From an uncultured Chloroflexia bacterium (GTDB taxonomy: Bacteria; Chloroflexota; Ktedonobacteria; Ktedonobacterales; Ktedonobacteraceae), in contig CAVSHN010000008.1 in assembly GCA_963727755.1 (NCBI GenBank), positions 541,156 to 605,155 on the forward strand: a DNA stretch of 64,000 bases. The letters are read 5' to 3'. Numbering within the stretch: position 1 is the stretch's first letter; the number at the start of each line of letters is the position of its first letter. Shown piece by piece: positions 34,034 to 60,641 of this stretch. Position numbers and translations under genes: made by a program. The notes beneath the pieces were generated by a model, which did not search any database, had not been told where the DNA came from, and worked only from the letters and a program-made list of their open reading frames with translations.

Positions 34034-37000
34034 ATGCCTGGGAATAAACAAGTCTTTAGTACAGCACTGAATGCTGCTGAGCGCCTCCTTTGGGCTTGCC
34101 AATGGATACAGGCTCTGCAAGAATACCAACAAGCACTTGCTGAGTTCCCAGAAGACTTAACAGCTCGCAGCGGTCTCGGCTTCTGCTATATGCAGACCAA
34201 ACAATGGTCAAAAGCACTCGAGGAGTATGGATATGTCCTCAAGAGCGAGCCGAGTAATATTATCGCATTAAGTAAAATTGCCGAGTTGTATGGTATTTTG
34301 AATCAACGTGAGGACGCCTATCATGCGTACCTCCATCTGGCGAATCTCTACTCGCAAGCTGGCCAGGGAACACGCGCAGAGGCAGCGTGGCAGAAAGCTG
34401 TTCAACTGTCCCCCGGCAAACCAGAGCCCCATGAACGGCTCGCAAGCTACTATTTTGAGAAAAAAGATATCGCTCAGATGATTCAACAACGATTGGCAGC
34501 TGCGCAGGACTACCTTCTGTGCAATAAGATCTCATCAGCACAGAAACAATGTGAAGAAGTACTGCGTGCAGATGCAACAAACGCTCAAGCACAACAGATA
34601 CTCGTGCAAATCCAGGATAAAGAAAATGAGGCATCCAATCCATTAGCACTGATAGCAGGAGTATCATCGGTTAACAATGCAGATAGCCCTGTGAATAGAA
34701 TATCAGCAGCCAAAACTGATTCTATCCTATCTAGGGATAACTCTGCAAAAGAAACTTTTCCATTGGGAAATATAAGCGGAGGGAATACTGGCATGATGAA
34801 TAATATGGGCGGCGCAGGTAATTATGGCAACGTTGGCAATTTAGGACCAACTGCAACCATGAACGGGAATGGTGGAGGCATAAATTCTGCCCCTCAGCAG
34901 AGGATCACTGCCAGCCAAGTCACAGAAGCATTGCAACAGGCGCAAATATATCAAGACCAGGGCCGTTTCAACGATGCTATCAACCTCTGCGAACAGATCC
35001 TGGCAAGTGGCTTTGACCGACCAGACGCACGATACTTCCTAGGTTGGCTTTATCAGGAACAACAGCGCTGGGACGAGGCCGTTGAACAGTTCCAGGCTTT
35101 ACTCAACGACCCTGACTACGCACTCTCCTGCTACTACTCACTGGGGCAATGCTACCGAGCAGGCGGCGATTTACGCTCTGCCACCGTGCATTTCGACGAG
35201 GCCGTTGATCGCGTCAACCTCGACGCCCTGACGGTGGAAGAGTCCGATCAACTTGTTCAGCTCTGTCAAGAGGCCGCTGAGGCTCACCGCCTATTAGGCG
35301 AACAGGAACAAGCTTTCACGATCTATAATGCCTTACTTGGTTTCCTGCGCAGTCGTGGCTGGAATGATAAAGTTACGCAGGTCGAGTTCATGATTCAACA
35401 GGCACAGAATATTCTTCCTGCCGACGCTTCTTCAATGACGGGTATGGCACAGACTCAGTCGCCACAGATACCAGCCGATGAAGTCCTCGAAGCTCCCACA
35501 GTAGCTGTCAATACAGCTAACATAGCCAGTAACACACAGTCATCACCTGCTCCAGCCAGTTCTACCGGTGACTTACCTGATTGGCTCACAGGCATTTTGA
35601 ATGATGAGGACAAAACACAAAGGGCCAATAAGCCTGCTACCCCTCCCCCTGCGGCCAAACCAGCACCAGCCATCGAGCAGCCAGCACCCATACAACCTCA
35701 GACTGCTACACCACAAGCATCGGTTGCCCCTCCTGTCGCACCAATAGAACCACCCACGACTACTACACCTGCAAAATCGACTTCCTGGTTAACAGACGAT
35801 GCCAATGCCAACGCCACGCGTGTTCTTCCACCAGAACCCCCGGTTCCTGCTAAACTCAACCACCTGCCGCACCAATACCCGTGCCACAACCACCTGCTGC
35901 ACCGCAGGCTGCTTCCACTGCCCCCATTCCAGAGCCAGCATTTCAGCCGCCTGCCGATGTATTCATACAACCAACATTTAGTGCTCCATCAATTCCTCCA
36001 GTAGATCAGCCTGCTTTTTCCATACTAAGCACTTCTTTCACCCCAATCCCTCCTACACAGCTAAACGGAGCTGCCGCCGCCGAAGATCTGCTTAACCAAA
36101 TGGCTGGAGCACAAGCTAATGAGCTAAATAACGTTGCTGACGCCGTTCTAGCCAGCACAGCTTCATTGCCAGAAAATCTACGCCTGCAAGTCGTACGCTC
36201 CATGCAGAACATTCAGAAGTATATCAACCACGGACTACTGACCCCAGCAAAGGAAGAGTGCTTGCGCGTAATCAATATCGCACCACAATATCTAGATGTA
36301 CACCAAGTACTATGCGAAATCTATGTCCGTGAGGGAAAGATCGATCAAGCCATCCCCAAATACGCTATTCTGGTCGATACCTACATCGCCAACGGGCGTA
36401 TCGAAGATGCTACCGCAACTTACCGACGCATCCTAGAACTCGACCCCAATAACATTACGTATCGCATGCGCCTAATCAATATGCTCTCGGCCCAGGGCAA
36501 CACAGAAGACTTACTGCGCGAGCGTACCTTGGCTGCCAGAGTCTTATCTCCGCCTTGGCTATATGGACCGCGCAATGACTGAGCTTGAACAGGCACTGCT
36601 GGAGAATCCGACCAATGTGCCAACTCGTCTGAACTATGCGCTGGCACTACAAAAGCTAGGACGTACCCAGGAGGCCATTGCAGAATACCAGCGCGTGTTA
36701 CAAGTTGATCCGCGCAATACCACTGCCCTTGTCCGTTGGCATGTCGCGATGGTCACAAACCTAGGTACGCCCCGAGGCACATCGCTCGAGGTGCTGTCAC
36801 GTATCCGCTGGCAATTGCGTGGTCCAGGACAGAAATATGCAGACTTTGTGACACGTGAGTATCTACAGGCATTAGATCTCTACCCCAACAATGCCGATGT
36901 GCATTATACATTAGGACAAATCTACCAGCAGAGTGGTCAATACGACCGTGCACTCGACTCATACCTCCTAGCCACACGCGATAATGCTGTCGAGATCCTG

Positions 37001-37972
37001 GCTCGCGTCAGCGCCGCTCAAACATTGTTTGCACAGGGCAGACCTGAACCAGCTATGCAGCACCTTGAACAGGTTTTACAACAAGTGCGACAATCTCCCA
37101 CTGCAATTGACCTCGCTACATGGGCCGCACGTCCGCGTGAAGAAGGCGAAGAACACCAAGCTCCCGAAATGGAAATCTCCTTGCAGCTTGTACAGGCCTA
37201 TAAACGCACAGGTCGTCAAGAGCAGATGCAAGCCCTTCTGCGCCAAGTGAAACAGCTTAAGACTGGACAGGACGAGGTAGTTTCCACCCTAGCCGATATA
37301 TCAAACCTGAATAACGACCCTGAAACCACCATGCGCGAATACCTCAAGTTGGTCAAACACTATCGCCAGAGCCGACAGCATGATAACGCACTCAAGACAT
37401 TGAATGAGATGATACGCTTTGCACCAGAGGACCCACGTACTCACGAAGAGCTGGCAGATATCTACATCAAGCGAGGCATGTTGGAAGAGGGGATGGCAGA
37501 ATTACGCATCCTGGCAGATATCTATCTCCGCAACGGCAATCTAGAGCAATCTGCTACGAAAATTCAACACATTGGCAACATGTACGCCCAGATGGGCAAC
37601 AACGATGAAGCACTATCTACCCTCTTCCGCGCCGCAGAGTTAGATAACAGCTCGATGGAACTGCTACGCGAGGTAGTTGGCCTGTGCCTGCAACTCGGCC
37701 GCAACCAAGATGCTGCTCGCTACCAGATTCAGATCGCCCGCCACTATGTTGCCACAGACCAGATCAAAGATGCTGTCGCAGCTCTCCAGCAATTGATTAC
37801 CATCGACCGCAACAATTATGAAGCCTATGACTTGCTAGGCCAAACCTACCAGTCTGTGGGTGAATATGAACAAGCCAGTCGTGTTTATCGCAACCTCGCC
37901 AAAATGAACCCCAGCAGTTCCACTGCCCGTGAACGACTAGCAACACTGCAAGAGTTACGTGCAGCCCGTTAA
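34034..37972 (+). CDS. Very large TPR-repeat protein with a Pro/Ala/Thr-rich low-complexity linker, two frame interruptions
   Basis: TPR repeats in 34034..36004 and 36563..37972. ORF 35881..36582 bridges them. Breaks are at the AAA run 35852-35854 and at tt in gtcttatctcc (about 36545). Confidence 0.55.
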
Positions 37973-38701: not shown

Positions 38702-39005
38702 GAAAGTCTTCATTAAACCATGAGCTGCCCATATACGGGTAGCTCATGGTTCAGTCTATAGATGTCATTGCTCTGGATACATAGGATATTATTCCTAAAC
38801 ATATAGCAGAAAACGACGAAAAGCTGATATCATTATGTTCAAGGAAAGTCAATAGGCAAGGATACGTCAGAGACGAAACGGTTTTAGCAAGAACAAAACC
38901 AAAATGTGATTCCCCCCTTTGTCTTTGTTTCTTTCCCATCTGCAAAAAACATACAGCGCCATTACTTTTTTTATGGTACTGATTGGAAAAAGGAGTTCAA
39001 AAAAC

Positions 39006-39206
39006 ATGAGTCAATTATTAACTGTTTCAGAAGTTGCCGATATTTTGCGTGTTGATGCGACAACCGTCCGACGTTGGGTGAAGTATGGTGTGCTTGAAGC
39101 TATAAGTCTACCACATGCTCGTAAGCGGCGATCCTATCGGATTAAACGCGAAACGTTAGACAAGGTTTTTGAAAACAATACACACCTGCAACTTGCTCAA
39201 GCCTAA
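39006..39206 (+). CDS. Small excisionase-type helix-turn-helix protein
   Basis: LTVSEVADILRVDATTVRRWVKYGVL. Start taken as MSQLL rather than the track's 38919. Confidence 0.45.
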   Translation: MSQLLTVSEVADILRVDATTVRRWVKYGVLEAISLPHARKRRSYRIKRETLDKVFENNTHLQLAQA

Positions 39207-39541
39207 GTCAGGCCCTGACCTGATAGACCGTAATTGGTCCCAGTTTAGCCGTTCTGGCAAAACGGCTTCCCGAAAAGGTTTCGCTTAGCCAAAAACGGCA
39301 GCCTTCATCGCTGCGGCAACTTTGATGTTGGCAGGATAGGGCAAGTCATGAGTCAATCAGCATTGACTCATCTTTGATGTAGATGCTATAGTATCTTTTG
39401 AAGACACTATGCTCTCTACGTCAAAGTTGCATAGATGTATGCACATCTCTACGCTTAACAGGCCGTATAGGATAACTTTAAGTCCCTGTCCAACGGAAGA
39501 TGTCTTCCTCAACTATCGAGGATGTTTGAATACAAGAAGGA

Positions 39542-40522
39542 TTGCCGTGCGATATGACATTTGCGAAAACTTTGCTTAAGACGAGCCTATCCGTGGGTGG
39601 TATCCTCGGAACACTGGCGATTGTCAACAAAGTGACCGAAACCATGGCGGGCGAACTCGATACCGTATTAACTGGTGAAGAGCGTCGCTATCCCTGGAAA
39701 TATGGTGATGTGTTTTATAAGGTGCAAGGGGCCCGGGATGCTAAGCCACTTGTGCTCATCCATAGTCTAAGTCTAGGAGCTTCTTCTTACGAGTGGCGCA
39801 AAAATGCCGATGCGTTGGCTCAACAGTTCCGTGTCTACACACCAGACTTGCTGGGGTTTGGTCTCTCCGATCACCCAACGATCGATTACGACGCTGAACT
39901 CTACGCAGACCTGATTAGTGATTTTCTGAAGGAAACTATCGGTCAACCTGCGATCGTCGTTGCTCATGGCCTTACCAGTGCCTACGTAATTGCGGCAGCC
40001 TATCGTCGTCCCCAATTATTTGAGCGGCTGGTACTAGTGGAACCATCACCTATCATATTGGAAGAGGCTTATCCAGGCCCTCTCAGCTCCGCATGGAAGC
40101 TTCTCCTGCGAACCCCAATTGTGGGCCAGTTTATCTATAATCGGCTAACCTCTCGTCAGGCTATTTGCAGCTACTATGATAAGCAAGGCTACCACAATCC
40201 CGGCTTAATCACTGACGAGCTAGTTGAGTATATCTATACCAGTGCTCATCAGCCCAATAGCCGTTTTGCGATCGCCTCTCTTCTCAGCAATCACTTGAAT
40301 CTGGATGTGCAAGAACCTTTCAGTCATTTGAAAACCCCCGTGGTTGTCGTGTGGGGACGCGAAGGTACACTCGCCTCTTCCGAAGCGCGTGCTGCTTTCA
40401 AACGTGCCAATCCTGACATCGTCGTGGATATCATCGACAAAGCCAGACTGCACGTCCAGGATGAACAGGCTAATCAGTTCAACACTCTGATCCGCGAATT
40501 TGCTCCCACAACTGTGAGATGA
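39542..40522 (+). CDS. Alpha/beta-fold hydrolase
   Basis: Alpha/beta hydrolase-6 pattern (PLVLIHSLSLGASSYEW, VVAHGLTSAY, LVLVEPS). The nucleophile motif is atypical (GLTSA). Confidence 0.7.
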   Translation: MPCDMTFAKTLLKTSLSVGGILGTLAIVNKVTETMAGELDTVLTGEERRYPWKYGDVFYKVQGARDAKPLVLIHSLSLGASSYEWRKNADALAQQFRVYTPDLLGFGLSDHPTIDYDAELYADLISDFLKETIGQPAIVVAHGLTSAYVIAAAYRRPQLFERLVLVEPSPIILEEAYPGPLSSAWKLLLRTPIVGQFIYNRLTSRQAICSYYDKQGYHNPGLITDELVEYIYTSAHQPNSRFAIASLLSNHLNLDVQEPFSHLKTPVVVVWGREGTLASSEARAAFKRANPDIVVDIIDKARLHVQDEQANQFNTLIREFAPTTVR

Positions 40523-40554
40523 ATCCGAGAGTGACGAGATCGTGAGCATAAAGG

Positions 40555-40589
40555 GAGATCTCCACACCCTAGCTGAGTGTGGAGATCTC
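40555..40589. terminator. 13-bp perfect stem hairpin (gagatctccacac...gtgtggagatctc) 3' of the hydrolase gene
   Basis: Seen directly. A weaker copy is at 42264-42298. Confidence 0.45.
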
Positions 40590-40711
40590 CCACAATCTGC
40601 ATCTACGCCCCATCCGCAGTGCGATGAGCGACCTAGAAGATCTATGCCCATCCATCTCTCAGCGGGGATTCATTTTTCCCGATTCCCACATGGGTTCCTG
40701 CTATCAGTCAC

Positions 40712-41797
40712 TCACTGAATATTACAACAGTCATCATCAATACAACAGTCACCACCACCACCACTGCCACCACCACTATTGTAATCCACGGCACCATCTA
40801 CATATCCCTCCGTGTAGTTATCACGCCTTCGACGTTCAGCTCTAGAGGGCCTATTACTCTCGTCATCGCGACAACAGCAGTCCCAGCAAGACTTCAAAGT
40901 ATCCTCAATCCTCTTAACAAGCTTCTTCCCATCCTCCTTAAAACCCTTCCAGTCTATACACCCCACTTCCACAGCTTCGCCACCTCTTCTATCGTGTTCA
41001 GGCTGTACACGCGCATTGCGCAACTCTCCCAATTCTCGCGAATATTGCAAATATTGCAGATACTGCGACTCTCGCTCAATCTGCTCGTTCAGCTGACTCA
41101 TTTGTTCATACCGCTCGCGCCACTCTCTCGCCTGATCAGATTCGCTCAATTCATGCAAAGGTTGCATGTTCATCCTTGAAAGTCCGGGTAACTGCAAATA
41201 TTCTCGATACGCCTCATGTTTCTCTCGTAATCTCTTCGGTTCTGAGGTGCCACCATCTGAGGAAACAGCTCTACCTACTTCCTGATAAGCAATAACGGCG
41301 GATAAGGTAAATGCCGCATTCCGAAAATCTGTGTTGCTGCCTTTACTAAAAATGAGCGCTGGCTTTTTCTTCAGCCGATCGATAAATTCCTTTACATAAT
41401 CATTATTCGTCAATAGCGGCTCGAGTATACCTGCTACTACTGCTTGATCATACTTACCAGCTACTATGTCGTTAACATGTGGGCCAATCGACGGGTTACC
41501 CATGAAGTTTCTAATGTTCCTCTGAGCTTTCTCATCATTCAGCGCACTGCGAAATAGTTCGCCAACCGATTTATCAGACTTTAGAAGAATCTTCCGGAGA
41601 GTCTTCTCGAAGGACGTCAACGCTCGTGCTTCTGTCCCTTTGCTCTCGCTCGACTCTGGCCGAGACAAAGGAGAATCCTGCAAAGGCATCCCCTTGACGC
41701 CATCTCTTCTCATACGTTGAAGCCTGTTTTCACTAGATGAGCTACTTCCTACAGTCCCATTTACTCCATGATACGCTGATAATACAACTTTATCCAT
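40712..41797 (-). CDS. Hypothetical protein with an extreme Cys/Asp/Gly-rich C-terminal tail, cassette gene 1
   Basis: 361 aa. Tail is CWDCCCRDD...GGGSGGGGDCCIDDDCCNIQ. Preceded by a conserved ~400-nt upstream module. Confidence 0.45.
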   Translation of the reverse strand: MDKVVLSAYHGVNGTVGSSSSSENRLQRMRRDGVKGMPLQDSPLSRPESSESKGTEARALTSFEKTLRKILLKSDKSVGELFRSALNDEKAQRNIRNFMGNPSIGPHVNDIVAGKYDQAVVAGILEPLLTNNDYVKEFIDRLKKKPALIFSKGSNTDFRNAAFTLSAVIAYQEVGRAVSSDGGTSEPKRLREKHEAYREYLQLPGLSRMNMQPLHELSESDQAREWRERYEQMSQLNEQIERESQYLQYLQYSRELGELRNARVQPEHDRRGGEAVEVGCIDWKGFKEDGKKLVKRIEDTLKSCWDCCCRDDESNRPSRAERRRRDNYTEGYVDGAVDYNSGGGSGGGGDCCIDDDCCNIQ

Positions 41798-42386
41798 ATG
41801 CCACTCCTTTTACTTCTTGATAGAGTTCAAACTCATCCAATCTCGCTCGTGTGAAACGCTTCACACCATTTTCCAAAATCAACACAACATGCAGGCTCAG
41901 AGCTGGCATGAGCAATGGCAGTCTCTCTCCGTGATGTTGACAGCTCACGATCCAGAGATTCCTCCTCCAGCCATTCCCTCAACTGGAGAACTGTTCGGCA
42001 GTGCCCTCGACTCTCATACTCAGCAATAGCCCTAGCTTTAACACTACCTTCATCACTGCATGCCCGTCAAGATGACAAAGAGGTGACAAATCCTACAGGA
42101 CGAGATAAGCGTGCCAATCCTGACATCGTTATGCAGATCATTGACAAAGCCAGACTGCACATCCAAGATGAACAGACTGATCAGTTCAATCATCCGATCC
42201 GCGAACTTGCTCCCACAACGGTGAGATGAACCAGAGAGTGACGAGATCGTAAGCACAAAGAGAGACCTTCACACCCTAGCTGAGTGTGGAGATCTCCCAC
42301 AGCATGCCTCTACGCATCAAACAATCTGTTGTACAACGAGCAGCTGGGAGAATCTATGCTCCTCCACTCCTTAGCGAGCTGCCATT

Positions 42387-44048
42387 CTATGGATTCTCGG
42401 GTGAGAAGTCCTCTAACGAGCTTGAACCGTTTGTGCGACGCGAAGGCCCAGGATCGTCATACTCACTTGGTTGTTGCGTTCCTCTCTCGTTGTCTACCAT
42501 ACTTCGTACCATTGCACGCCTGATTCCCTCATCGTTGCGGGGACCCATTCTTTCCGATGGTATGGGAAGCAACGGCGGGTTATCACTGTTTCTGCGATCG
42601 ACCTGCCCAGAGCTAGAACCCTCTTCGAACAAAGATTGAGGCCTACCACCCGGATATCCCTCGATACCGCCCCGGCTTTCTAGCTGTTGTCTCTCAAGAT
42701 CGCGTTCTAGAGATTTCCCATCGGGTTTAGGTTCATAAGGGACAGGTATAGCGGCAAGTATACGATTGGAGTCTATACGCTCGAGCAGATAACCAATGAC
42801 CATTGGTATATCTCTTGGTTGCACTTCCCTATTTTGATTCCTCTGCTCACCTTGATTCCCCTGCCTATTTTGATTCCTCTGCTCATATCGATAGCAACAC
42901 CATAACAAAACACACAACATAGCCACGCCTACCATACTAATACTCCAAGAAATCCGGTCAGAGGATTTATTTGGTGTATCATTTGTTGATGGTGTATCAT
43001 CTGCTAATGGTATATTATCTGCTAATAGTACTTCCGCATGTTGCTGTACTTCTTGTATCATTCTCTTCGTCAGAGACAATTTTCGAATGTCTTCCAAAGA
43101 ATAGAGATCATGCGCTCTAAGCTCATTATCCTGTATTAAATGTTTAAAGTTTTCCATATACTTCTTATTGTTGAACACCTTTTTGAGGACTTGCAGAGCC
43201 TTCGGATTCTCCCATAACAAGATGGCTCGTTCGACATTCTCCTTATTCTTCAGCTCAGAGATGACACACCTCCTAACCCCTTCATCCTGTATTAAATCGT
43301 TAATACCTCCCATAACCTCCTTATCATTCTGCACCATTTGCAAGCATTTGCGAGCCTCCGGATGCTCCTTGAGAAAAGCAGCGCAAGTTCTCAAGGTGTC
43401 AAACTCCTCCCTACTCAGCTTGAGAGACTCTGCCCTTTCGCTCTTGTCCTGCTTTAGCTGATCTGGATGAGCATCTGTTACGGATCGAGAAGTCTTCTCA
43501 CCAAGCGTCACCTTCCTCGAACGAAAATCAAGAGCTGTCTCCCTGTCATCTTTTCTCTGACCCTCTCCTTGATGCAAGCCCTTGGAAGCTTGCTCACCTT
43601 CTCTGGCCCATTTATCAATATCTTCAGCCAAGTGAGGCCATAGCTTACGTAACGGCGAGTCCTCGTCGGGAACTCCCAAGTTTTTATTTGTCCCATCTGG
43701 ATCAGATGACCCTGGGGTATCCTGGGATAATTTCCTCTCTGGCAGTCCCTCAATGCAGTTGGCTCGCTGCTCAGGCACTGCCAGAGAAGAAGATGGTCGA
43801 TCCGTTAGCTCCTTGCCGCCCCCTAGAGCAAGAGCTGTATCAGAAGCTCCAGGCGGTGAGACACCCTCGGCACGACTTATCCCCGAAGCTCCTTGGACAG
43901 CCAGAACAGCCAAGCCAAGACGGTACGCTCCTGCAAATGCAACACCTACATACTTTCGCATTTTATCAGAAGCGGTACCGCTTCCATCTTTTGGCTCTCC
44001 TTTCTCGCTAGACTTTGATTCATTTTCACTATTTACGTCTCCTGACAT
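42387..44048 (-). CDS. Hypothetical membrane-anchored protein, cassette gene 2
   Basis: 553 aa. N-terminus MSGDVNSENESK then a hydrophobic helix (YVGVAFAGAYRLGLAVLAV), helical repeats in the middle, a second TM, and a low-complexity Q/N/R-rich C-terminus. Confidence 0.45.
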   Translation of the reverse strand: MSGDVNSENESKSSEKGEPKDGSGTASDKMRKYVGVAFAGAYRLGLAVLAVQGASGISRAEGVSPPGASDTALALGGGKELTDRPSSSLAVPEQRANCIEGLPERKLSQDTPGSSDPDGTNKNLGVPDEDSPLRKLWPHLAEDIDKWAREGEQASKGLHQGEGQRKDDRETALDFRSRKVTLGEKTSRSVTDAHPDQLKQDKSERAESLKLSREEFDTLRTCAAFLKEHPEARKCLQMVQNDKEVMGGINDLIQDEGVRRCVISELKNKENVERAILLWENPKALQVLKKVFNNKKYMENFKHLIQDNELRAHDLYSLEDIRKLSLTKRMIQEVQQHAEVLLADNIPLADDTPSTNDTPNKSSDRISWSISMVGVAMLCVLLWCCYRYEQRNQNRQGNQGEQRNQNREVQPRDIPMVIGYLLERIDSNRILAAIPVPYEPKPDGKSLERDLERQQLESRGGIEGYPGGRPQSLFEEGSSSGQVDRRNSDNPPLLPIPSERMGPRNDEGIRRAMVRSMVDNERGTQQPSEYDDPGPSRRTNGSSSLEDFSPENP

Positions 44049-44449
44049 CCTTGTTTCTTTGAAATCCCAATTTTATACTCCTTTTACTTTTAATAGGTGT
44101 TCAAACTTATTCAATCTCATTCAGGCGAGACGCTTGACACCGTTTTTCAAAATCAACACAACATGTAGGCTCAGAGCAGGCATGAGCAATGGCAGTCTCT
44201 CTCCGTGATGTTAACAGCTCACGATCCAGAGATTCCTCCTCCAGCCATTCCCTCAACTGGAGAACTGTTCGGCTGTGTCCTCGACTCTCATACTCAGCAA
44301 TAGCCCTAGCTTTAACACTACCTTCATCACTATATGCCTGTCAAGATGACAAAGAGATGACAAGGTGACAGCTCATACAGACGAGATAAGCATGCCACTT
44401 CCTGACATCGTCGTGGATATCATCGACAAAGCCAGTCTCCAGCGGGGTT

Positions 44450-45010
44450 CTATGTTTTGCTACGAGAAGATCTCAACGAACCCCGCCGTGTGGCCTCCTC
44501 CAGACTAATTAGTTCGTCTTGGCCTTTTCCTTGTGCTTTCCTCCGCCGTGTCGTCTCCCCCAGAATGATTGGAGGACTCTGCTCGTCTTGGCCTTTTCCT
44601 CGCGCTTTCCACCTCCATGTCGTCTCCCCCAGAATGATTGGAGGACTCTGTTCGTCTTGGCCTTTCCTCCGTATCCCTCCTCGCCGTGTCGTCTCCCCCA
44701 GATGAGGACTTAGCATCCCCAACTCGCCTTTTCCTCGCGCTTTCCACCTCCGCGCCATCTCTCCCAGATGAGGACTCAGTATCCCCAACTCGCCTTTTCC
44801 TCGCGCTTTCCACCTCCATGTCGTCTCCTCCAGATGAGGACTTAGCATCCCCAACTCGCCTTTCACTCGCGCTTTCCACCTCCATATCGTCGCTCCCAGA
44901 TGAGGACTTATTATCCCCAACTCGCCTTTTATTCGTTTCTCCCTGGGCTGATGATATATCACGTCTCTTCGCAATATTTCGGGAAGGCTCCACCGATGAG
45001 CTTGCGCCAA
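44450..45010. repeat. Minisatellite of about eight units of 59-69 nt
   Basis: Units are cgtcttggccttttcctcgcgctttccacctccatgtcgtctccc(c)cagaWtga.... Unit length varies, and ORFs are open in four frames, so coding status is uncertain. Confidence 0.6.
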
Positions 45011-46579
45011 GACGCTTCTGCCCTGAAATTCACCGATGAATTAGCCTCGAGTTGTCGAGACGATGCCATTGGATTCAAACCTGCGTCCGGTACGTTGGAA
45101 GGAAGCATGTTCTCACCCATTTGGGACGATGGAGCCCAAGAGTAATCATGGAATTGAGAAGGCGCTTTTGCACGGGAGCAAGCCGGAACATCAGCTTTTT
45201 CCATCCTTAAGCTTTGAGATATTGTATCCGAATACATTTGATGAGGAGCAGTCATGCTGATCTCATCCCACTGTCTATTGCCATAGGGTCTTTGTCGCAT
45301 TCCACCGCCGTATCTCCTCCCTCCATTGCCAAAGGGCATTTGTCGCATTTCATCGTTGTATCCCCTCCTCTGTTCACGGTCCCTTGCTTCAGATGCAATA
45401 CGGGCGGCTCTTTGTACCTCACTGGAGGAAGCAGAGCCATCAGCTCGTCCCCACGATAAGCGTAGAGGCGCCGTGCAGAAATTTTTAATTGCAGTAACTC
45501 GTCTCCTGCAGGAGCTTGTAAGTCTCGCCAAATCGTCATATATAGGCTCTCTCAATGCCCATAATATAGTTCCACCTAATAATAATCCAATAGACGCGAA
45601 TGACTTTGGCCAGTCTACATTTCTACCGTTTTCACAATGAGATATGCCCAATGCATCTTTACAACAATTGTAGTAATGGACCAGATATTCGCCTTTGCGA
45701 TATGCCTCATAGGATCTATACGGCTTACAATACTCCTCAACTTGAGGGTATTGAGACTTTCCAACCTCCTTATTCTTTTCAAAACTCTTACTGTCTTCCA
45801 CAACTCCCTCATCATCTATTAAATTTTTATTTTGCTTACTAATCTTTTTATCGTTAATCTCCCCTTTGAGGCGCTTCCAAGCCTCTGGATTTTCCTTGAG
45901 ATAGTCAACTAAAGACTTAACAACCTCCCCTGGAACCTCTGTCCTTTTGCTCTCGCGATGCTCTTGTGATGGAGTCTCCATTGCGGATTCGAGCAGCCTT
46001 CTCACTAGGTGTTATCTTCTTTGAGTGGAGGTCAGGAGGGGTCTTTTCGCTAGGTGTTTCCTGACCCTCTCCTTGATGCAAGCCCTTGGAAGCTTGCTCA
46101 CCTTCTCTGGCGGCCCATTTATCAATATCTTCAGCCAAGTGAGGCCATAGCTTACGTAACGGCGAGTCCTCGTTGGGAACTCCCAAGTTTTTATTTGTCC
46201 CATCTGGATCAGATGACCCTGCGGTATCCTGGGATAATTTCCTCTCTGGCAGTCCCTCAATGCAGTTGGCTCGCTGATCGGGCGCTACTTGAAAAGAAGG
46301 TCTTTGATCCGTTAGACCTTTGCTGTCCATCGGAACAAGAGCAGAGCCAGAAGCTTCAGGCGTTGAGACACCCTCGACACAACTTATCCCCGAAAAAGCT
46401 ACTTGGACAGCCAGAGCAGCCACGCCAAGACGGTACGCTCCTGCGAATGCAACACCTATATACTTCTGCATTTTATCAAAATCGGTATCGCATCCATCTT
46501 TTGAATTTGCTTTCTCGCTAGACTTTGATTCATGTTCACTATTTACGTCTCCTGACATCCTTATTTCTTCGAATCCCAT
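44959..46579 (-). CDS. Paralog of cassette gene 2, frame interrupted
   Basis: ORF 45917..46579 is about 75% identical to the N-terminus of the 553-aa protein. ORF 44959..46005 aligns to its central helical repeats (LKENPEAWKRLKGEINDK versus LKEHPEARKCLQMVQNDK). The frames meet near 45960-46010. Confidence 0.4.
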
Positions 46580-47078
46580 TTTTACGCTCCTTTTACTTTT
46601 AACAGATATTCAAACTCTTTCAAACTCATTCAATCTCGTTCAGGCGAGACGCTTCACACCGTTTTTCAAAATCAACACAATACATTGGCTCAGAGCTGGT
46701 ATGGGCAATGGCAGTCTCTCTCCATGATGTTGACAACTCACGGTCAAGAGATCACGCCTCCTGCCATTCCCTCAACTGGAGAACTGTTCGGCTGTGCCCT
46801 CGACTCTCATACTCAGCAACAGCCCTAGCTTTCATCATACCTTCATCACTGCATGCTTGCCAAGATGACAAAGAGGTGACATTGTCATGTAGATCATCGA
46901 CAAAGCCAGACAGGTGAGGTTGATCTTCTTGCGTGGAGATTGCCCACGGGAAGCGGGAACGATAAATGAAACTGATGGAAATTCTGAGGAGTATTGGTCA
47001 AAGCACCCGCTTGCCTAACGCCAGCGGGCGCAATAAATCGGGTATGCGCCGCAAATCTTATGCGCGTTTTCCCCCTGA

Positions 47079-48459
47079 TCAATCATAGCTACGACGATTG
47101 TTGCTACGATTACTAAAGTTGCCAACGAGATGAGGTGCAACACCCCCTTTTTCCAGAGCATTACGCAATTCACGTAGATCTGTATCTCCATTGACGGCAA
47201 GCATACCGGGGGCAAGCTGGCGGATACCAAATTCCTGAAGCTTGGCAGATGCAGATAACTGAGCTATCGCCTCTTCACTCGACACTTTCGAGCAGCAGAA
47301 CCTGCGAGATACGTGTCTCTTTGTATTGCCGAGCCCAATCTCGCAGCGTATAAACAACATTCTGGGGCAATTCCTTATGACTATTTTCCTCTAGAACCTG
47401 GATAATCCGCTCAACAGTGTAACCAGCGGCCATGCCACGCAAGAGGGATGCTTTCGTCAGTGTTAAACGGCTAGCTGCCGCAATCTGATTGACCTGAACA
47501 AAAGGCAGTACACTATATAACGTTGGCAGGTGAGAGTGCAAGAGTAGCAATTCGAAGCTAGGCTGGACAATTAGGAAGCGTTGTGTGCCATTTCCATTAT
47601 CCGTCTGTTGGCTAACTTTAGTATGCTGTTCAGATGTTGGGAGCACGGTCGCGGCCAGTTCACTAAGCATAAAAGTATCAGGATTTCGATATTTTTCCTC
47701 AGTAGGAGCAATCTGATAACCTAGGCTCACGATCCCCAAGTCACGCAATGAGCTATCAAGCATACCAACATAAAATTGGCCATCGCTCTTCATCCATTTG
47801 TGGCGAGCATCTTTGTCATTGCGCAGGCGTTTTTTCGCTGACGACCCACGGCGCATCGCCTCAGGATTTTTCTCCCATAGTTCCTCTAGGAGAGAATCGA
47901 CCCTATACCACTTGTCTGGTATACAAGTACACAACTGTTCTAGTAAGACCTGACGCCCTTTACGTATATCCAAGTCATAAAGGTAGGAATACGAGTCCCA
48001 GGGATCATATTCTGCTCTAGCTACGTCTATAATGTGCTTGTTATGGCTCCATTCTTTTAGTAACAGCTTCATCTGCCCAACTATATCCAGACGGGACCAA
48101 GATATCAATTGGGAACCAGGGTCAATGCATGGCTTCATATCGCTAAAGGGCGGCTCGGTACGTTGCAGGACATGCATATTGATCAGCAAATCAAAGAGCA
48201 TGTCAGTATAATTATCTGTGCCATTATAGTCCAAACGAGGCTGTCCTTTAAGTTGTGGACGTAGCTTATTAACTATACGCTTGGGAATGTGCCCGGCCTG
48301 TGTCGGTTCAATCTTCTGCTGATAAACGGCATTGACTATTACTGCCACATCGTAAATTATTGCTGGCTCAGCAGCATACTCGACTGGTGGTGCTGTTTCA
48401 AGTATTTTTAACATCCTTCTCCTCAGGTTGGTATGTTTCAAGATAACGGATAACCTCAC
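47079..48459 (-). CDS. Hypothetical protein, possibly frame-interrupted near 47300
   Basis: ORFs 47275..48459 and 47079..47360 look like one gene. The start may be the internal MLKILET at about 48414. No confident family. Confidence 0.3.
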
Positions 48460-55225: not shown

Positions 55226-56594
55226 ATGGCTACATTTGACAACACATTACACATCGCACAAACCAAACCCATCATGCGCCCCACCGAGGAGATCCGCAAG
55301 GATTTCCCTATTCTCTCACATAAGGTGCATGGCAAGCCACTGGTGTACTTAGATAGTACGGCCAGTTCGCAGAAGCCCACAGTTGTGCTTGAAACGATGG
55401 AGCACTACTACCGAACCTACAATGCCAACATCCATCGCGGCGTCTACCACATAAGTGAAGAGGCGACAGCCGCAATGGACAAGGCGCGTGTGAAAATCGC
55501 TCGTTTCATCAAGGCACGCCAGAGCAAGCAAATCATCTTCACGCGCAACACGACCGAGAGTATCAACCTTGTGGCCTATAGCTGGGGGGATGCAAACATT
55601 CATGCTGGCGACTTGATTGTACTGACCGAGATGGAACATCACAGCAATCTTGTCCCCTGGCAACTGCTAGCTCAGCGTACAGGTGCCCATCTAGAATTTA
55701 TCCCGGTAAGTGATGAGGGCCTATTGCGTCTAGACATCTATCAGGAAGTCTTGCAACGGCAGCCAAAATTGGTAGCGTTTACCCACATGTCCAATGTCCT
55801 GGGAACAATCAATCCCGCCAAAGAGATGATCGCACAGGCGCATGCAGCGGGAGCCACAGTACTGCTAGATGCAGCCCAGAGTGTGCCTCACTTACCAGTC
55901 AATGTAGAGGATCTCGACGTCGATTTCCTGGCTTTCAGTGGACATAAGATGCTTGGTCCTACAGGTATTGGTGTCCTTTATGGCAAACGAGCATTATTAG
56001 AAGCCATGCCTCCATTTATGGGCGGTGGCGACATGATCCGCACGGTACACCTGCGCGAATTCTACTTGGAACGATCTACCATGGAAATTTGAGGCCGGAA
56101 CACCAGCCATTGCTGAGGCTATTGGTCTGGGAGTTGCGGTAGATTATTTGAATGAGTTATTGCAGTATCCTCCAACGGACCAAAGAGAAAACCCAACAGA
56201 CATGGGCAATCCCAACGGAGCAAAGCTCAACATGTCAAGCAATCTTGTATCGAGCATGGCAGCGGTACAACAACACGAGAGTGAGATAACAGCCTATGCC
56301 ATGGAGCAGTTACAAGCAATTGCTGGCTTGAAAATCTATGGACCCGATGCCAACCAACGTGGCGGAGTCATCTCTTTCACACTAGATGATATCCACCCAC
56401 ACGATCTGGCCTCGATCCTAGACCAAGAAGTGGGTGTAGCAATCCGTGCTGGCCATCATTGCGCCCAACCCTTGATGGACCGATTTGGGCTAGCCGCAAC
56501 GGCCCGTGCCAGCTTCTATATCTACACACTTCCAGCAGAAATTGATATACTAGTACAGGGATTACGCAAGGCACAAGAAATCTTTCGTTTCTAG
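55226..56594 (+). CDS. sufS: Cysteine desulfurase SufS, frame interrupted
   Basis: PLP Lys in FSGHKMLGPTGIG and catalytic Cys in RAGHHCAQP. ORFs 55226..56092 and 56148..56594 join at about 56063-56067 (REF then TWNDLPWKFEAGTP). About a 40-aa insertion follows DYLNEL. Confidence 0.85.
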
Positions 56595-58913: not shown

Positions 58914-60641
58914 ATGCTCGATCAAAAGACATTCCAACTCGCCTCCTTGCGCAAACCCGTAGGGATTACCAAAGGACCAGGCGAGACCATTCACGAATAT
59001 ACCTTCGTTTCACGCGATGATCTGCAGATACTCAAAAATGGTGAGTATGTGTATTATGAACTCATCGATCCTGATCTAGCAACTATAAATGGCAATGCCG
59101 CTCCCACTCGCCGAGTACTTGGGCGTATCCTCAAACGCGTCCCTCTACAGCTCTACCCGGATACATTTTTAGGTGAACCAGAGATCTCACCTGCTCAGGT
59201 TGCAGCTATGGTGGGTTACAATACACATACAAATGAACTTTTCGAACTGCACGTTGCTATCATGGGCTACTACGACCCTGCAACTGCTTCATTTATCAAT
59301 CCTTGGATTCCTCCCCAATCCGGCAAGCAGATCTTCCTGGCAGACAACCAGATGCTCGAAGAAGTTCTGAGCCGTAAGCGGGACCGCCAGTTCGGTTCCG
59401 CAACCATCGGCTCTCTGCTAACCCGACCGCTAGGCGCAGTTCCGATCGTATTATCAGTCAAGGACTTGGTCAGCACACACCTAGCCATCATTGCCAGTAC
59501 TGGTGCCGGTAAAAGCTATCTAGCCAGCGTGATTATTGAGGAACTGATGCAGCCACATAATAAAGCCTGTATCTTGATTATCGATCCTCACGGTGAATAT
59601 AGCACCCTTGATCAGATCGCTAACACTCCTCAGTTCGAAGAGCCCGGCGACGGTCGCGGTAGCGGCTACCGAGCAGAAGTGCGTATCTACAAGCCCGAAC
59701 AAGTCAAGGTGCGAATTTCTTCACTGAACATGGGCGATATGCGCCAACTGCTGCCGGAGATGACTGAGAAGCAGCAATATTTGCTAAGCAGGGCACTACG
59801 CAAGGTTCGCGAGACCAAACGTGGTACCCCCTGGAGCGTGGCTGATCTTAAGCAGGCCATCAAGGCCGTCTCGCGCCAGAAAAACGATGAGGATAGCGAA
59901 GGGGCCGACAATTCTAGCACTGTCCATGCTCTGACATGGCGAGTGGAGCAGATTTTTGAGCATAGCTTTACCTTCGACGATACACAGCACCTAGACTTAC
60001 CAGAAATTTTCAAACCGGGCCTGTGCACAGTCTTACAGCTCAACGAGATTGATGAGCGTGACCAGCAAGTGGTGGTAGCAACCTTGCTACGCCGCTTGAA
60101 CCAAGCGCGTATGGATACCGAGCGAGGAAAAGTACATTCAGGCGAGTCCTATCTGCCCTATCCCGTCTTTGTACTACTGGAGGAGGCCCATCACTTTGCT
60201 CCTGGCGGCACCGAAGTTGTTTCGACAGCTATTCTCAAACAAGTGCTGGCCGAGGGACGTAAATTTGGTATTGGTGTTGGTCTAATCAGTCAGCGCCCCG
60301 GCAAATTGGATGCCGATGTACTCAGTCAGTGCCAGACGCAATGCATCATGCGTATAGTCAACGAGTTAGACCAGAAAAGCGTTGCCACCACTATTGAAGG
60401 AGTAGGACAAGATCTGCTAGGTAATTTGCCTGCACTTTCTAAAGGTCAAGTCATCGTTGCTGGAGCAGCCGTGAATACACCCATTATTTGTCGTGTACGA
60501 CAGCGCTATACACAGCATGGAGGCGAAAGTAAAGACGCCCCTGATATGTGGCAAAAATATTTCAGCCGAGAGACGCAAGAAACCAGAAAACGTACTGAAG
60601 CGCCATTGAACGGCAATAGAGGCTTTAACTTGTTGAGGTGA
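58914..60641 (+). CDS. HerA/FtsK-like ATPase (DUF87 / HerA central-domain family)
   Basis: N-terminal barrel-like region, then Walker A IIASTGAGKSY, ILIIDPHGEY, Walker B VFVLLEEAHHF and an Arg-finger region GVGLISQRPGKLD. Confidence 0.7.
   Translation: MLDQKTFQLASLRKPVGITKGPGETIHEYTFVSRDDLQILKNGEYVYYELIDPDLATINGNAAPTRRVLGRILKRVPLQLYPDTFLGEPEISPAQVAAMVGYNTHTNELFELHVAIMGYYDPATASFINPWIPPQSGKQIFLADNQMLEEVLSRKRDRQFGSATIGSLLTRPLGAVPIVLSVKDLVSTHLAIIASTGAGKSYLASVIIEELMQPHNKACILIIDPHGEYSTLDQIANTPQFEEPGDGRGSGYRAEVRIYKPEQVKVRISSLNMGDMRQLLPEMTEKQQYLLSRALRKVRETKRGTPWSVADLKQAIKAVSRQKNDEDSEGADNSSTVHALTWRVEQIFEHSFTFDDTQHLDLPEIFKPGLCTVLQLNEIDERDQQVVVATLLRRLNQARMDTERGKVHSGESYLPYPVFVLLEEAHHFAPGGTEVVSTAILKQVLAEGRKFGIGVGLISQRPGKLDADVLSQCQTQCIMRIVNELDQKSVATTIEGVGQDLLGNLPALSKGQVIVAGAAVNTPIICRVRQRYTQHGGESKDAPDMWQKYFSRETQETRKRTEAPLNGNRGFNLLR

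What the first reader, a model, noticed from the sequence alone, without database searches (positions are those of the whole stretch)
40380..46925. Cassette-like array: repeated ~400-nt upstream modules, including copies of a hydrolase gene's 3' end, flank unrelated minus-strand genes with odd low-complexity tails
Three copies of a ~350-450-nt module (41798-42300, 44049-44445, 46580-46925) sit directly upstream of three minus-strand genes. Two of the modules (42095-42300 and 44390-44440) contain partial copies of the last ~200 nt of the alpha/beta-hydrolase gene plus its strong terminator hairpin, down to in-frame relics such as RANPDIVMQIIDKARLHIQDEQ. The gene bodies are not the same: a 361-aa protein ending CWDCCCRDD...DCCIDDDCCNIQ, a 553-aa membrane-anchored helical-repeat protein, and a frame-disrupted paralog of the latter. 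Conserved flanks around exchangeable genes, plus an embedded minisatellite, points to a recombination-driven variable locus such as a polymorphic surface/toxin-immunity or contingency locus. A repeated long 5'UTR could also be a shared riboregulator.
Basis: seen in the sequence. Interest (0 to 1): 0.75.

Follow-up and report, generated by a model that had tools for sequence, protein, structure and literature searches.

The report
Recombining tandem array of orphan membrane-protein genes
In an uncultured soil Ktedonobacteraceae bacterium, a gene for a fast-evolving, mostly disordered membrane protein was copied three times in a row, each copy carrying its own promoter and a scrap of the neighbouring hydrolase gene, and the copies still swap pieces; this is a clear but ordinary kind of bacterial gene-family evolution, not a new cassette machine.

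Summary
Window 40400-46915 holds three head-to-tail units. Each unit is a relic of the hydrolase 3' end, a minus-strand gene, and a ~290-nt promoter/leader module. A fourth 42-nt relic and a 66-nt minisatellite are also present.

The genes are mosaic paralogues of one orphan family, not unrelated cassettes. I found 81 clusters in 1.84 billion representatives and no Pfam, NCBIfam or PADLOC hit. Members have an N-terminal anchor, a helical-repeat ectodomain, a TM helix, and Cys-rich or repetitive tails. Gene A's link to the family is weak.

The same relic|module junction occurs in six related assemblies. A more distant Ktedonobacteraceae MAG has an empty site, with 85 nt between the hydrolase and helicase stops.

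Among relatives whose flanking genes are 91-97% identical:
- unit number varies between 2 and 3;
- paralogue type varies by position;
- modules are mosaics with a recurrent breakpoint (max-chi2 p 0.0015-0.024);
- relics exchange alleles with the live hydrolase end.

Array genes show dN/dS 0.66-1.2, against 0.05-0.37 for flanking genes.

Nothing supports a riboregulator, an integron-like mechanism, a toxin-immunity system or a phase switch. Best reading: a young tandem paralogue cluster that diversifies by unequal homologous recombination and gene conversion. Protein function is unknown and is probably in the cell envelope.

The parts
39542..40522 (+). Alpha/beta-hydrolase gene (326 aa). Its last ~123 nt (40400-40522) are the source and partner of the repeated 'tail' relics.
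   Evidence: Pfam Abhydrolase_6/1 E 1e-16. Orthologues are 95% aa identical in L001, L002 and L035. The native tail is 90-91% identical to the L001 and L037 tails, while the gene body is 97% identical.
40553..40591 (.). 17-bp-stem hairpin between the convergent hydrolase gene and gene A. It is followed by a T-rich run on the minus strand, so it is a terminator-like site for gene A.
   Evidence: (I1).
40712..41797 (-). Gene A, 361 aa, no TM segment, Cys-rich tail. It is a divergent, mosaic member with a 'type II' N-terminus.
   Evidence: ORF. It matches only itself in 5.8 billion proteins. Residues 19-69 match the L037_8601 N-terminus. hhalign to the family profile gives E 3.7e-4, probability 37%. 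AF2 pLDDT 39, all helical.
41803..42106 (-). Module 1: promoter-like site (-35 at 42070-42065, -10 at 42046-42041), ~250-nt leader and an AAAGGAG Shine-Dalgarno sequence.
   Evidence: Alignments A1 and A3. It is 95% and 97% identical to module 2 in the first two thirds and 77% in the last third.
42107..42315 (+). Tail relic 2: in-frame copy of the last 41 hydrolase codons with the stop codon, plus a hairpin copy (42262-42298) that lies 89 nt after the gene B stop.
   Evidence: 87% identity to 40400-40608. Translation.
42387..44048 (-). Gene B, 553 aa. It has an N-terminal hydrophobic anchor (33-51), a helical-repeat region (213-341), a TM helix (366-384) and a long low-complexity tail with 18/36-nt in-frame repeats.
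   Evidence: Homologues. No Pfam, NCBIfam or PADLOC hit.
44049..44399 (-). Module 2: promoter-like site (-35 at 44344-44339, -10 at 44320-44315), leader and Shine-Dalgarno sequence.
44400..44441 (+). Tail relic 3: 42 nt, no hairpin.
   Evidence: 95% identity to 40411-40452.
44483..44935 (-). Minisatellite, period 66/69 nt, about 6 copies. It is open in two minus-strand frames. It is probably the repetitive C-terminal tail of B' after a frameshift. No counterpart exists in the related loci.
44959..46579 (-). Gene B': a paralogue of B split into a 220-aa ORF and a 348-aa ORF by one extra base at about 45985-45990 (CGA-A-TCC). It is either a pseudogene or an assembly indel.
   Evidence: Other genes in the window are also split.
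46580..46873 (-). Module 3: promoter-like site 46863-46834, with an internal 10-nt x 3.5 repeat at 46608-46642.
46874..46915 (+). Tail relic 4: 42 nt, helicase-proximal. It is present at the same place in L001, L002, L035 and L037.
47079..48459 (-). Helicase_C_3-domain gene, the far boundary of the array. In L003 its stop codon lies 85 nt from the hydrolase stop.

Best explanation
This is a young tandem paralogue cluster restricted to one lineage of Ktedonobacteraceae.

How it arose. One transcription unit came to lie between the convergent hydrolase and Helicase_C_3 genes. The unit consists of a sigma-70-like promoter, a ~250-nt leader, a Shine-Dalgarno sequence, the gene and a terminator hairpin. 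It was then amplified by unequal crossing-over. One duplication end-point lay inside the last ~120 nt of the hydrolase gene, so every unit now starts with a relic of that gene's 3' end, usually with the terminator hairpin.

How it works now. The repeated [tail relic + promoter/leader + first ~200 codons] blocks are substrates for homologous recombination. Unequal exchange adds or removes whole units. Gene conversion homogenises neighbouring units within a genome. Crossovers inside the leader and inside the genes reassort N-terminal, core and C-terminal segments. Slippage of in-frame tandem repeats remodels the tails. Because the live hydrolase end is one of the repeats, it also exchanges sequence with the relics.

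The products (inferred). They are mostly disordered single-pass envelope proteins, with an anchor or signal, an exported helical-repeat region, a TM helix and a Cys-rich or repetitive cytoplasmic tail. They evolve almost without constraint on sequence while keeping long ORFs. That pattern fits diversifying or very relaxed selection on a surface-exposed protein.

Shown: the anatomy, the single origin of the junction, the empty site, the turnover, the mosaicism and the rate contrast. Inferred: the order of events, the promoter and terminator function, the membrane topology and any biological role.
For: Tandem units and junctions:
- The same [tail|module] junction is present in all seven assemblies (window, L001, L002, L034-L037).

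Empty site:
- In L003 the hydrolase stop is followed by 85 nt and then the helicase stop. The flanking genes there are 74-84% nt identical to the window.

Turnover:
- The window, L001 and L002 have 3 units. L035 and L037 have 2. L001_u3 and L035_u2 have truncated modules. The hydrolase-proximal gene is of a different type in each genome. Flanking genes are 91-97% nt identical across these genomes.

One family:
- All-against-all BLASTP and alignment A4.
- 13 homologues among 5.8 billion proteins.
- 81 clusters among 1.84 billion representatives.

Mosaicism and conversion:
- W_u1 vs W_u2 modules are 95/97/77% identical by thirds. L002_u2 vs u3 are 98/88/70%.
- Max-chi2 gives p = 0.0015-0.024, with breakpoints recurring at alignment columns 217-230.
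- Relic tails carry alleles (VQ.I, NHLIREL) that are native in other genomes.
- Native tails diverge about 3 times more than the hydrolase body.

Rates:
- dN/dS is 0.66-1.2 for array genes (alignable pairs) and 0.05-0.37 for hydrolase, lytB and DUF892.

Promoter:
- TTGACA-18-TAnnnT, with G33, T34, A35 and T39 invariant in 14 copies. The tool detects the site in module 3.

Protein architecture:
-.

In-frame tandem repeats in several members:
-.

Precedents for the mechanism:
- S. aureus lpl (PMC2568036) and esaG/tipC (PMC9484751).
Against: - No expression or protein data exist, so promoter, terminator and topology are predictions.
- dN/dS near 1, one broken copy (B') and pLDDT 39-44 are also what decaying, functionless duplicates would show.
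- The first step is unresolved. I cannot say how the unit arrived or why a 42-nt tail relic sits on the helicase side of the last unit. A simple tandem duplication does not by itself produce that relic.
- Most of gene A's body (about residues 110-290) has no detectable relative, so 'divergent paralogue' rests on its two ends and a weak profile match for that gene.
- The assemblies are MAGs and metagenome contigs. The window carries several split genes, so single-base details such as the B' frameshift are unreliable.
Confidence: 0.78

Rival explanations
1. Neutral debris: the array is a set of functionless, decaying duplicates, and the long ORFs are transient. The locus is a recombination-prone scar with no biological role.
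For: dN/dS is 0.66-1.2. B' is frame-broken. L036 carries a split A-like gene. The proteins are about 60% disorder-promoting residues and pLDDT is 39-44. Module divergence is about equal to dS.
Against: ORFs of 360-720 codons persist in most units of seven assemblies, even though paralogues are 30-70% aa divergent. The anchor / helical repeat / CC..GIPHCD motif / TM / Cys-cluster architecture is retained. The promoter hexamers and the Shine-Dalgarno sequence are the most invariant parts of the module. Family members also occur in other genomic contexts (L038, L039).
Confidence: 0.12
2. Shared riboregulator: the ~250-nt leader is a structured cis-regulatory RNA, or encodes a regulatory leader peptide, that co-regulates all units. 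Selection for it explains the conservation of the module.
For: The leader is long and has invariant stretches across 14 copies. One reading frame (..VLQLREWLEEESLDRE..ETAIAHASSEP..) is open in 7 of 14 copies, and gene callers annotated it in L002, L034 and L036.
Against: There is no Rfam match at E<=1. The MFE z-score is -0.10. Only 2 of 60 alifold pairs show compensatory change and the covariation term is -0.6 kcal/mol. Indels of 1 or 2 nt break the peptide frame in 7 of 14 copies. Two units (L001_u3, L035_u2) and L039 lack the central ~170 nt of the leader altogether. Divergence is about the same as dS. The copies are too similar for covariation to be a strong test.
Confidence: 0.08
3. Site-specific cassette system (integron-, shufflon- or invertase-like): the conserved flanks are recombination sites for a dedicated recombinase that moves genes in and out.
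For: The look is cassette-like: conserved flanks around a dissimilar body (A versus B), an imperfect hairpin at the 3' end of two units, and an HTH_17 (excisionase-like fold) gene 340 nt upstream of the hydrolase.
Against: No integrase, invertase or transposase was found among the neighbours I scanned. The HTH_17 gene is also present in L030, whose contig ends before the site. Each unit has its own promoter. The hairpin is simply the hydrolase/gene-A terminator and is missing from relics 3 and 4. Breakpoints lie at various places inside long homologous blocks, including within the leader and within coding sequence, which is typical of homologous recombination. All units have the same orientation.
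Confidence: 0.02
4. Polymorphic toxin-immunity or antagonism locus: the array is a string of immunity-like membrane proteins comparable to esaG, tsaI or tipC.
For: The array is a tandem set of non-identical paralogues evolving by recombination (compare PMC9484751). L001 has a small EndoU_bacteria ORF about 9 kb away, beyond the suf operon.
Against: No toxin, LXG/WXG, Rhs, T6SS or T7SS component was found in or beside the array. The proteins are long, disordered and single-pass, unlike known immunity proteins. The flanks are housekeeping genes (lytB, suf, DUF892).
Confidence: 0.04
5. Assembly artefact: a repeat expanded or mis-joined during assembly.
For: The window contains several frame-split genes (helicase, SufS, TPR protein), so base-level errors are plausible.
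Against: The copies are 77-95% identical, not 100%. The same architecture was recovered independently in six other assemblies from ENA and JGI samples.
Confidence: 0.01

Closest known systems
Staphylococcus aureus lpl tandem lipoprotein-like cluster (Tsuru & Kobayashi 2008, PMC2568036)
   Same: Both are tandem paralogues of envelope proteins. The conserved unit of evolution spans gene boundaries (3' part + intergenic region + 5' part of the next gene). Homologous recombination at conserved blocks shuffles the variable parts and changes copy number between strains.
   Different: Here the conserved block is mainly non-coding (promoter/leader) plus a relic of an unrelated neighbouring gene and the N-terminal third of the coding sequence, not a central intragenic block. 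There is no lipobox. The protein family is unrelated and uncharacterised. The host is a soil Chloroflexota bacterium, and the locus is not a pathogenicity island.
T7SS immunity gene arrays esaG / tipC (Garrett et al. 2022, PMC9484751)
   Same: Both are strings of non-identical tandem paralogues. Blocks of high similarity, including at the 5' and 3' ends, mediate recombination that accounts for gene loss and expansion.
   Different: No toxin or secretion system is linked here. The proteins are large, disordered, single-pass membrane proteins. The recombination blocks extend into intergenic DNA and into a live neighbouring gene.
Mycoplasma variable surface lipoprotein loci (vlp, vsp). This comparison is from my own knowledge and was not tested against sequences here.
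   Same: Each gene in the cluster has a highly conserved 5' non-coding region and N-terminal export or anchor segment, followed by a divergent C-terminal region built of in-frame tandem repeats that change in number.
   Different: I found no lipoprotein signal, no homopolymer tract in the promoter spacer and no invertase, so there is no evidence of an ON/OFF phase switch. Variation is seen only between genomes, not within a clone.
Integron gene-cassette arrays
   Same: A row of genes with recurring boundary sequences, and a hairpin-forming element at the 3' end of some units.
   Different: There is no intI, no attI or attC, and the cassettes are not promoterless. The genes are paralogues, and exchange is by homologous recombination.

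Membership tests
Tandem paralogue cluster diversifying by homologous recombination (lpl / esaG type) | Adjacent, same-strand genes that are paralogues of one family | tested here: met
   B, B' and all array genes of L001, L002 and L034-L037 hit each other (E 1e-17 to 0; alignment A4). Gene A is linked only through its N-terminus and a weak profile match.
Tandem paralogue cluster diversifying by homologous recombination (lpl / esaG type) | Blocks of high nucleotide similarity shared by all units | tested here: met
   The tail relic and the module are shared by every unit in seven assemblies. Mean column identity of the module is 83%.
Tandem paralogue cluster diversifying by homologous recombination (lpl / esaG type) | Mosaic or incongruent relationships between segments of the same unit | tested here: met
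   Segment-wise identities switch nearest neighbour. Max-chi2 permutation gives p 0.0015-0.024 in five of six triplets.
Tandem paralogue cluster diversifying by homologous recombination (lpl / esaG type) | Copy number and content differ between close relatives | tested here: met
   Arrays have 2 units (L035, L037) or 3 units (window, L001, L002), and L003 has an empty site.
Integron cassette array | Adjacent tyrosine-recombinase integrase (intI) and attI | tested here: not met
   The neighbours are DUF892, HTH_17, the hydrolase, Helicase_C_3 and LytB. No recombinase was found in the ORFs scanned. I did not scan the whole 64 kb.
Integron cassette array | attC site at each cassette 3' end, and promoterless cassettes | tested here: not met
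   The hairpin is present in only 2 of 4 boundaries and is the copied hydrolase terminator. Every unit has a conserved -35/-10 pair.
Structured cis-regulatory RNA (riboswitch or leader) | Match to a described RNA family | tested here: not met
   Rfam 15, E<=1, both strands, 39000-48000: 0 hits.
Structured cis-regulatory RNA (riboswitch or leader) | Structure supported by covariation or by unusual stability | tested here: inconclusive
   The z-score is -0.10. 2 of 60 pairs show compensatory change. The copies are 77-94% identical, so the test has low power.
Phase-variable contingency locus | Long simple-sequence tract in the promoter or 5' coding sequence, or an invertible element | tested here: not met
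   TRF finds only coding mini-repeats and the 66-nt array. The promoter spacer has no homopolymer, and the leader (GA)n tract has only 3-5 units. There are no flanking inverted repeats.
Polymorphic toxin / immunity system | Toxin domain or dedicated secretion genes linked to the array | tested here: not met
   Pfam, NCBIfam and PADLOC give nothing for the array proteins. The flanks are housekeeping genes.
Bacterial lipoprotein families (vlp / vsp / lpl-like) | Signal peptide ending in a lipobox cysteine | tested here: not met
   The N-terminal hydrophobic segment (...AVLAVQGASGISRAEG...) has no L-x-x-C motif (sequences). This rests on inspection, not on a dedicated predictor.

The most novel reading that the evidence does not exclude
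The array is a selected diversity generator for an exposed envelope protein of a free-living, mycelial soil bacterium. Under this reading, the conserved promoter/leader and the hitch-hiking hydrolase-tail relics are kept because they serve as portable homology arms. Those arms let units be reshuffled, gained and lost at high rate, for example to escape phages or for kin recognition. As a side effect they continually rewrite the C-terminus of a housekeeping hydrolase. A related possibility is that most of gene A's body is newly originated coding sequence captured between family-derived ends.
Probability: 0.15. Interest if true: 0.6.

Novelty: new member of a known kind. Interest (0 to 1): 0.35.

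Why it matters
The locus gives a clean, datable example of how a multigene family is born and diversifies in a little-studied phylum, because an empty site is still available in a relative. It also shows that a duplication end-point inside a neighbouring gene leaves in-frame relics that look like designed cassette boundaries and then drag that neighbour's 3' end into concerted evolution. It defines an unannotated, fast-evolving family of predicted envelope proteins restricted to Ktedonobacteraceae, which could be tested for roles in phage interaction or development. For genome scanning it is a useful caution: conserved flanks around dissimilar genes can arise from ordinary unequal recombination plus mosaic paralogues, with no dedicated cassette machinery.

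Tried and rejected
- Pfam, NCBIfam and PADLOC scans of A, B and both B' ORFs gave only sub-threshold noise. Pfam on 10 distant family hits gave composition-driven TM/juxtamembrane matches and weak GerD/TcaA_2nd hits below cut-off. I did not rely on these.
- AF2 of B with a 13-sequence alignment gave pLDDT 44. Foldseek against the PDB gave no hit at E<=0.001. AF2 of A from the single sequence gave pLDDT 39. Neither model is informative beyond 'helical plus disordered'.
- Rfam, single-sequence folding and alifold on the leader gave no support for structure.
- The test for a conserved upstream ORF in the module failed: the frame is open in only 7 of 14 copies, and the 3-periodicity of substitutions is weak.
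- Two scans of metagenome contigs found nothing. One used the protein alignment. The other used a 29-base two-part module pattern. That collection evidently lacks these organisms.
- The exact-sequence contig look-up for P0001 failed, so the window's own record name is unknown.
- I searched the array for relics of the helicase 3' end or the hydrolase body, to explain how the first unit arose. None was found.
- BLASTN and TBLASTX of the gene A body against all loci, looking for out-of-frame or antisense derivation from B-type genes, found only the type II N-terminal ~130 nt and the 3' flank.
- The minisatellite has no counterpart in related loci.

Full report
**1. What is in the sequence**

The region 40400-46915 consists of three head-to-tail units on the minus strand. 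Read 5'->3' on that strand, each unit has three parts:
- a ~290-350-nt upstream module;
- a gene;
- a copy of the 3' end of the convergent alpha/beta-hydrolase gene (39542-40522, + strand).

Self-BLAST and the repeat finder give these matches:
- modules 41803-42159 vs 44077-44441: 88%;
- modules 41826-42088 vs 46619-46881: 88%;
- module plus about 200 N-terminal codons of B and B', 43428-44362 vs 45937-46881: 84%;
- hydrolase tail plus hairpin, 40400-40608 vs 42107-42315: 87%;
- 42-nt tail fragments at 44400-44441 (95%) and 46874-46915 (89%).

The junction between module and tail relic is the same in all copies.

The hairpin at 40553-40591 has 17 pairs and is followed by a T-rich run on the minus strand. 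It is copied at 42262-42298, 89 nt after the stop codon of gene B.

A 66-nt minisatellite of about 6 copies lies at 44514-44930.

One refinement is needed: the repeated object is a whole tandem unit, and there are four tail copies, not two.

**2. Organism and comparative context**

The hydrolase finds 31 loci in GTDB species genomes. All are Ktedonobacteria or Ktedonobacteraceae (Chloroflexota).

Proteins related to gene B led to six further assemblies:
- L001 from ENA;
- L002, L035, L036 and L037 from JGI;
- L034 from ENA.

Wherever the contig is long enough, the array sits in the same place: LytB, Helicase_C_3, array, hydrolase, HTH_17, DUF892.

Flanking genes are 91-97% nt identical to the window. 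Every one of these arrays has the same tail-relic|module junction, including the short 42-nt relic on the helicase side.

By contrast, L003 is a Ktedonobacteraceae MAG whose hydrolase is 83% nt identical to the window's. In L003 the hydrolase stop is followed by only 85 nt and then the Helicase_C_3 stop. So the array arose once, after that lineage split off.

**3. Turnover**

The window, L001 and L002 have three units. L035 and L037 have two.

The gene next to the hydrolase differs between genomes:
- window: A, 361 aa, soluble, Cys-rich tail;
- L001: a 521-aa relative of B (59% identity by BLASTP over 574 columns);
- L002: 418 aa;
- L035: 633 aa;
- L037: 724 aa, with a type II N-terminus and ten 13-aa repeats.

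Two units (L001_u3, L035_u2) have lost the promoter and the central leader.

**4. The genes are one family, not unrelated cassettes**

All array genes of the relatives, and B and B', match each other (alignment A4).

The shared architecture is as follows:
- an N-terminal charged segment;
- a hydrophobic anchor;
- a disordered stretch;
- a conserved HQGEAQGKD..FRSRKV motif;
- 2-10 short helical repeats;
- often a CC(K/R)D..GIPHCD motif;
- a TM helix;
- then a dense Cys cluster or a long low-complexity or repetitive tail.

Gene A finds only itself in 5.8 billion proteins. However:
- its residues 19-69 match the N-terminus of L037_8601, a clear family member (E 6e-9 against 21 sequences);
- about 130 nt of its 5' coding sequence is 79% identical to L037;
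- its ..LKSCWDCCCRDD.. tail resembles L036_3001;
- residues 44-107 align weakly to the first helical repeat of the family profile (hhalign E 3.7e-4, probability 37%).

I read A as a mosaic, strongly diverged member. The middle of the protein has no detectable relative.

The family is small and restricted. It has 13 word-based hits and 81 clusters at 50% identity among 1.84 billion representatives. No Pfam, NCBIfam or PADLOC family matches.

The family is not confined to this locus. L039 carries an 819-aa member beside an enolase-superfamily gene, with the promoter part of the module but no hydrolase tail. L038 carries a more distant member.

**5. Evidence for ongoing homologous recombination**

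Module copies are mosaics.
- W_u1 vs W_u2 are 95%, 97% and 77% identical in successive thirds.
- L002_u2 vs L002_u3 are 98%, 88% and 70%.
- The 3' thirds group instead with 'type II' units of other genomes.

Maximum-chi-square tests with permutation give p = 0.0015-0.024 in five of six triplets. Breakpoints recur at alignment columns 217-230, about 75 nt before the start codon.

So neighbouring units within a genome have been homogenised over tail plus promoter, while the gene-proximal parts keep older lineages.

The tail relics remain in frame in almost all copies. They carry combinations of two alleles of the hydrolase C-terminus (VVDII...NTLIREF and VVQLI...NHLIREL). Each allele is the native one in a different genome.

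The native tails of L001 and L037 differ from the window's by 9-10%. The rest of the gene differs by under 3%. The live hydrolase end therefore takes part in the exchange.

**6. Rates**

For alignable pairs, array genes have dN/dS of 0.66-1.2. Hydrolase, lytB and DUF892 between the same genomes have 0.05-0.37.

Module divergence (88-83% identity, K about 0.13-0.19) is close to the synonymous divergence of the adjoining N-terminal coding sequence (dS 0.17-0.32).

The conservation of the module and of the in-frame relics therefore needs no special selection. They are simply young or recently converted.

**7. The module**

It contains TTGACA, an 18-nt spacer and TAnnnT, with G33, T34, A35 and T39 invariant in 14 copies. 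After about 250 nt there is an AAAGGAG Shine-Dalgarno sequence. The scan tool reports the site in module 3.

Tests of the riboregulator idea gave the following:
- no Rfam match;
- folding energy no better than shuffles, z = -0.10;
- a consensus structure with a -0.6 kcal/mol covariation term and 2 compensatory pairs out of 60.

A peptide frame is open in 7 of 14 copies and broken by 1-2-nt indels in the rest. Natural deletion variants lack the central leader.

A regulatory RNA is not excluded, because the covariation test has low power. Nothing calls for one.

**8. Proteins**

AF2 of B with 13 sequences gives pLDDT 44. Only the helical repeats at 213-341 (pLDDT 65-76) and the TM helix are modelled. 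Foldseek finds nothing at E<=0.001. AF2 of A gives pLDDT 39.

Function is unknown. The anchor / ectodomain / TM / tail layout and the rate pattern make an envelope protein under diversifying or very relaxed selection the most economical inference.

**9. B' and the minisatellite**

B' is split by one extra base in CGA-A-TCC, which is not a homopolymer.

The 348-aa frame stops at the start of the minisatellite. The minisatellite is open in the other two frames. In frame 1 it would encode about seven RRVGDAKSSSGGDDMEVESARK repeats, a tail of the kind seen in other members.

The helicase, SufS and TPR genes of the window are also split relative to their orthologues. These breaks may therefore be assembly indels rather than pseudogenisation.

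**10. What remains unexplained**

I cannot say how the first unit reached this site. I also cannot say why a 42-nt tail relic, truncated at nearly the same position as relic 3, lies between the last module and the helicase in all genomes.

No relics of the helicase end or the hydrolase body occur in the array.

**11. Comparison and verdict**

The mechanism matches tandem paralogue clusters that diversify by recombination at conserved blocks:
- S. aureus lpl, where the conserved unit spans gene boundaries (PMC2568036);
- esaG/tipC arrays (PMC9484751).

In layout it resembles Mycoplasma vlp/vsp loci (from my own knowledge), but without a lipobox or a phase switch.

Integron, toxin-immunity and contingency-switch memberships fail their defining features.

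The locus is a genuine, variable, recombining array of a new orphan family. The kind of system is known.

Noticed in passing
window 47275-47360 (minus strand): The Helicase_C_3 gene is split into a 394-aa ORF and a 93-aa ORF by a single extra G (CGAAA-G-TGTCG) relative to L001 and L037, where it is one 444-aa gene.
   Followed up: partly
window 55226-56594 and 34034-37972: The SufS-like aminotransferase is split into 288-aa and 148-aa ORFs. The large TPR protein (1224-1343 aa in L001 and L002) is split into 656-, 233- and 469-aa ORFs. Several frame breaks in one window suggest indel errors in the assembly, or widespread pseudogenes.
   Followed up: partly
L003 1417-1510: Empty site: in a Ktedonobacteraceae MAG (SMAG_U4882) the hydrolase and Helicase_C_3 stop codons are only about 85 nt apart, with a hairpin between them and no array.
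   Followed up: yes
L039 500-3072: An 819-aa family member lies beside an enolase-superfamily gene. It has the promoter part of the module and a leader lacking the central ~170 nt, but no hydrolase-tail relic. It is a possible donor-type or dispersed copy.
   Followed up: partly
window 40400-40522 vs L001 14987-15110 and L037 10929-11051: The last 41 codons of the functional hydrolase differ by 9-10% between genomes whose hydrolase bodies differ by under 3%. The variant residues are the ones carried by relic copies, so a housekeeping gene's C-terminus is being rewritten by gene conversion.
   Followed up: yes
window 42811-42885, 42972-43026 and 40750-40777: There are in-frame 18/36-nt repeats in the tail of gene B (QRNQNRQGNQGE...) and a CAC/12-nt repeat in the tail of gene A (GGGSGGGG). 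Relatives carry other coding repeats, such as 10 x KELMEGIKSLVKD in L037_8601 and ERNRLMP repeats in L036.
   Followed up: partly
window 46608-46642: Module 3 has a 10-nt unit (GAGTTTGAAT on the gene strand) repeated 3.5 times just upstream of the Shine-Dalgarno sequence. The other modules have one or two copies.
   Followed up: no
module alignment A3, columns 95-260 (e.g. window 44260-44100, minus strand): A peptide-like frame (..TVLQLREWLEEESLDRELSTSRRETAIAHASSEP.CCVDFEKRCE..NEIE*) is open in half of the module copies and was called as a 72-83-aa gene in L002, L034 and L036. It may be a relic of an older coding sequence rather than a live upstream ORF.
   Followed up: partly
family proteins, juxtamembrane region (e.g. 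L002_8172 residues 345-412; window gene A residues 305-361): There are very dense cysteine clusters (CCCCAVCCC, CWDCCCRDD, DCCIDDDCCNIQ) at or after the TM helix, preceded in many members by a conserved CC(K/R)D..GIPHCD motif. Metal binding or acylation is conceivable. I know of no characterised counterpart.
   Followed up: no
window 58914-60641: There is a HerA/DUF87 ATPase gene (575 aa) preceded by an unannotated 231-aa ORF. It could be part of a defence or DNA-processing pair and is unrelated to the array.
   Followed up: no
window 39316-39430: A 24-nt inverted repeat pair (67 nt apart) and a 10-of-12 promoter-like site (39363-39392) lie in the HTH_17-hydrolase intergenic region.
   Followed up: no
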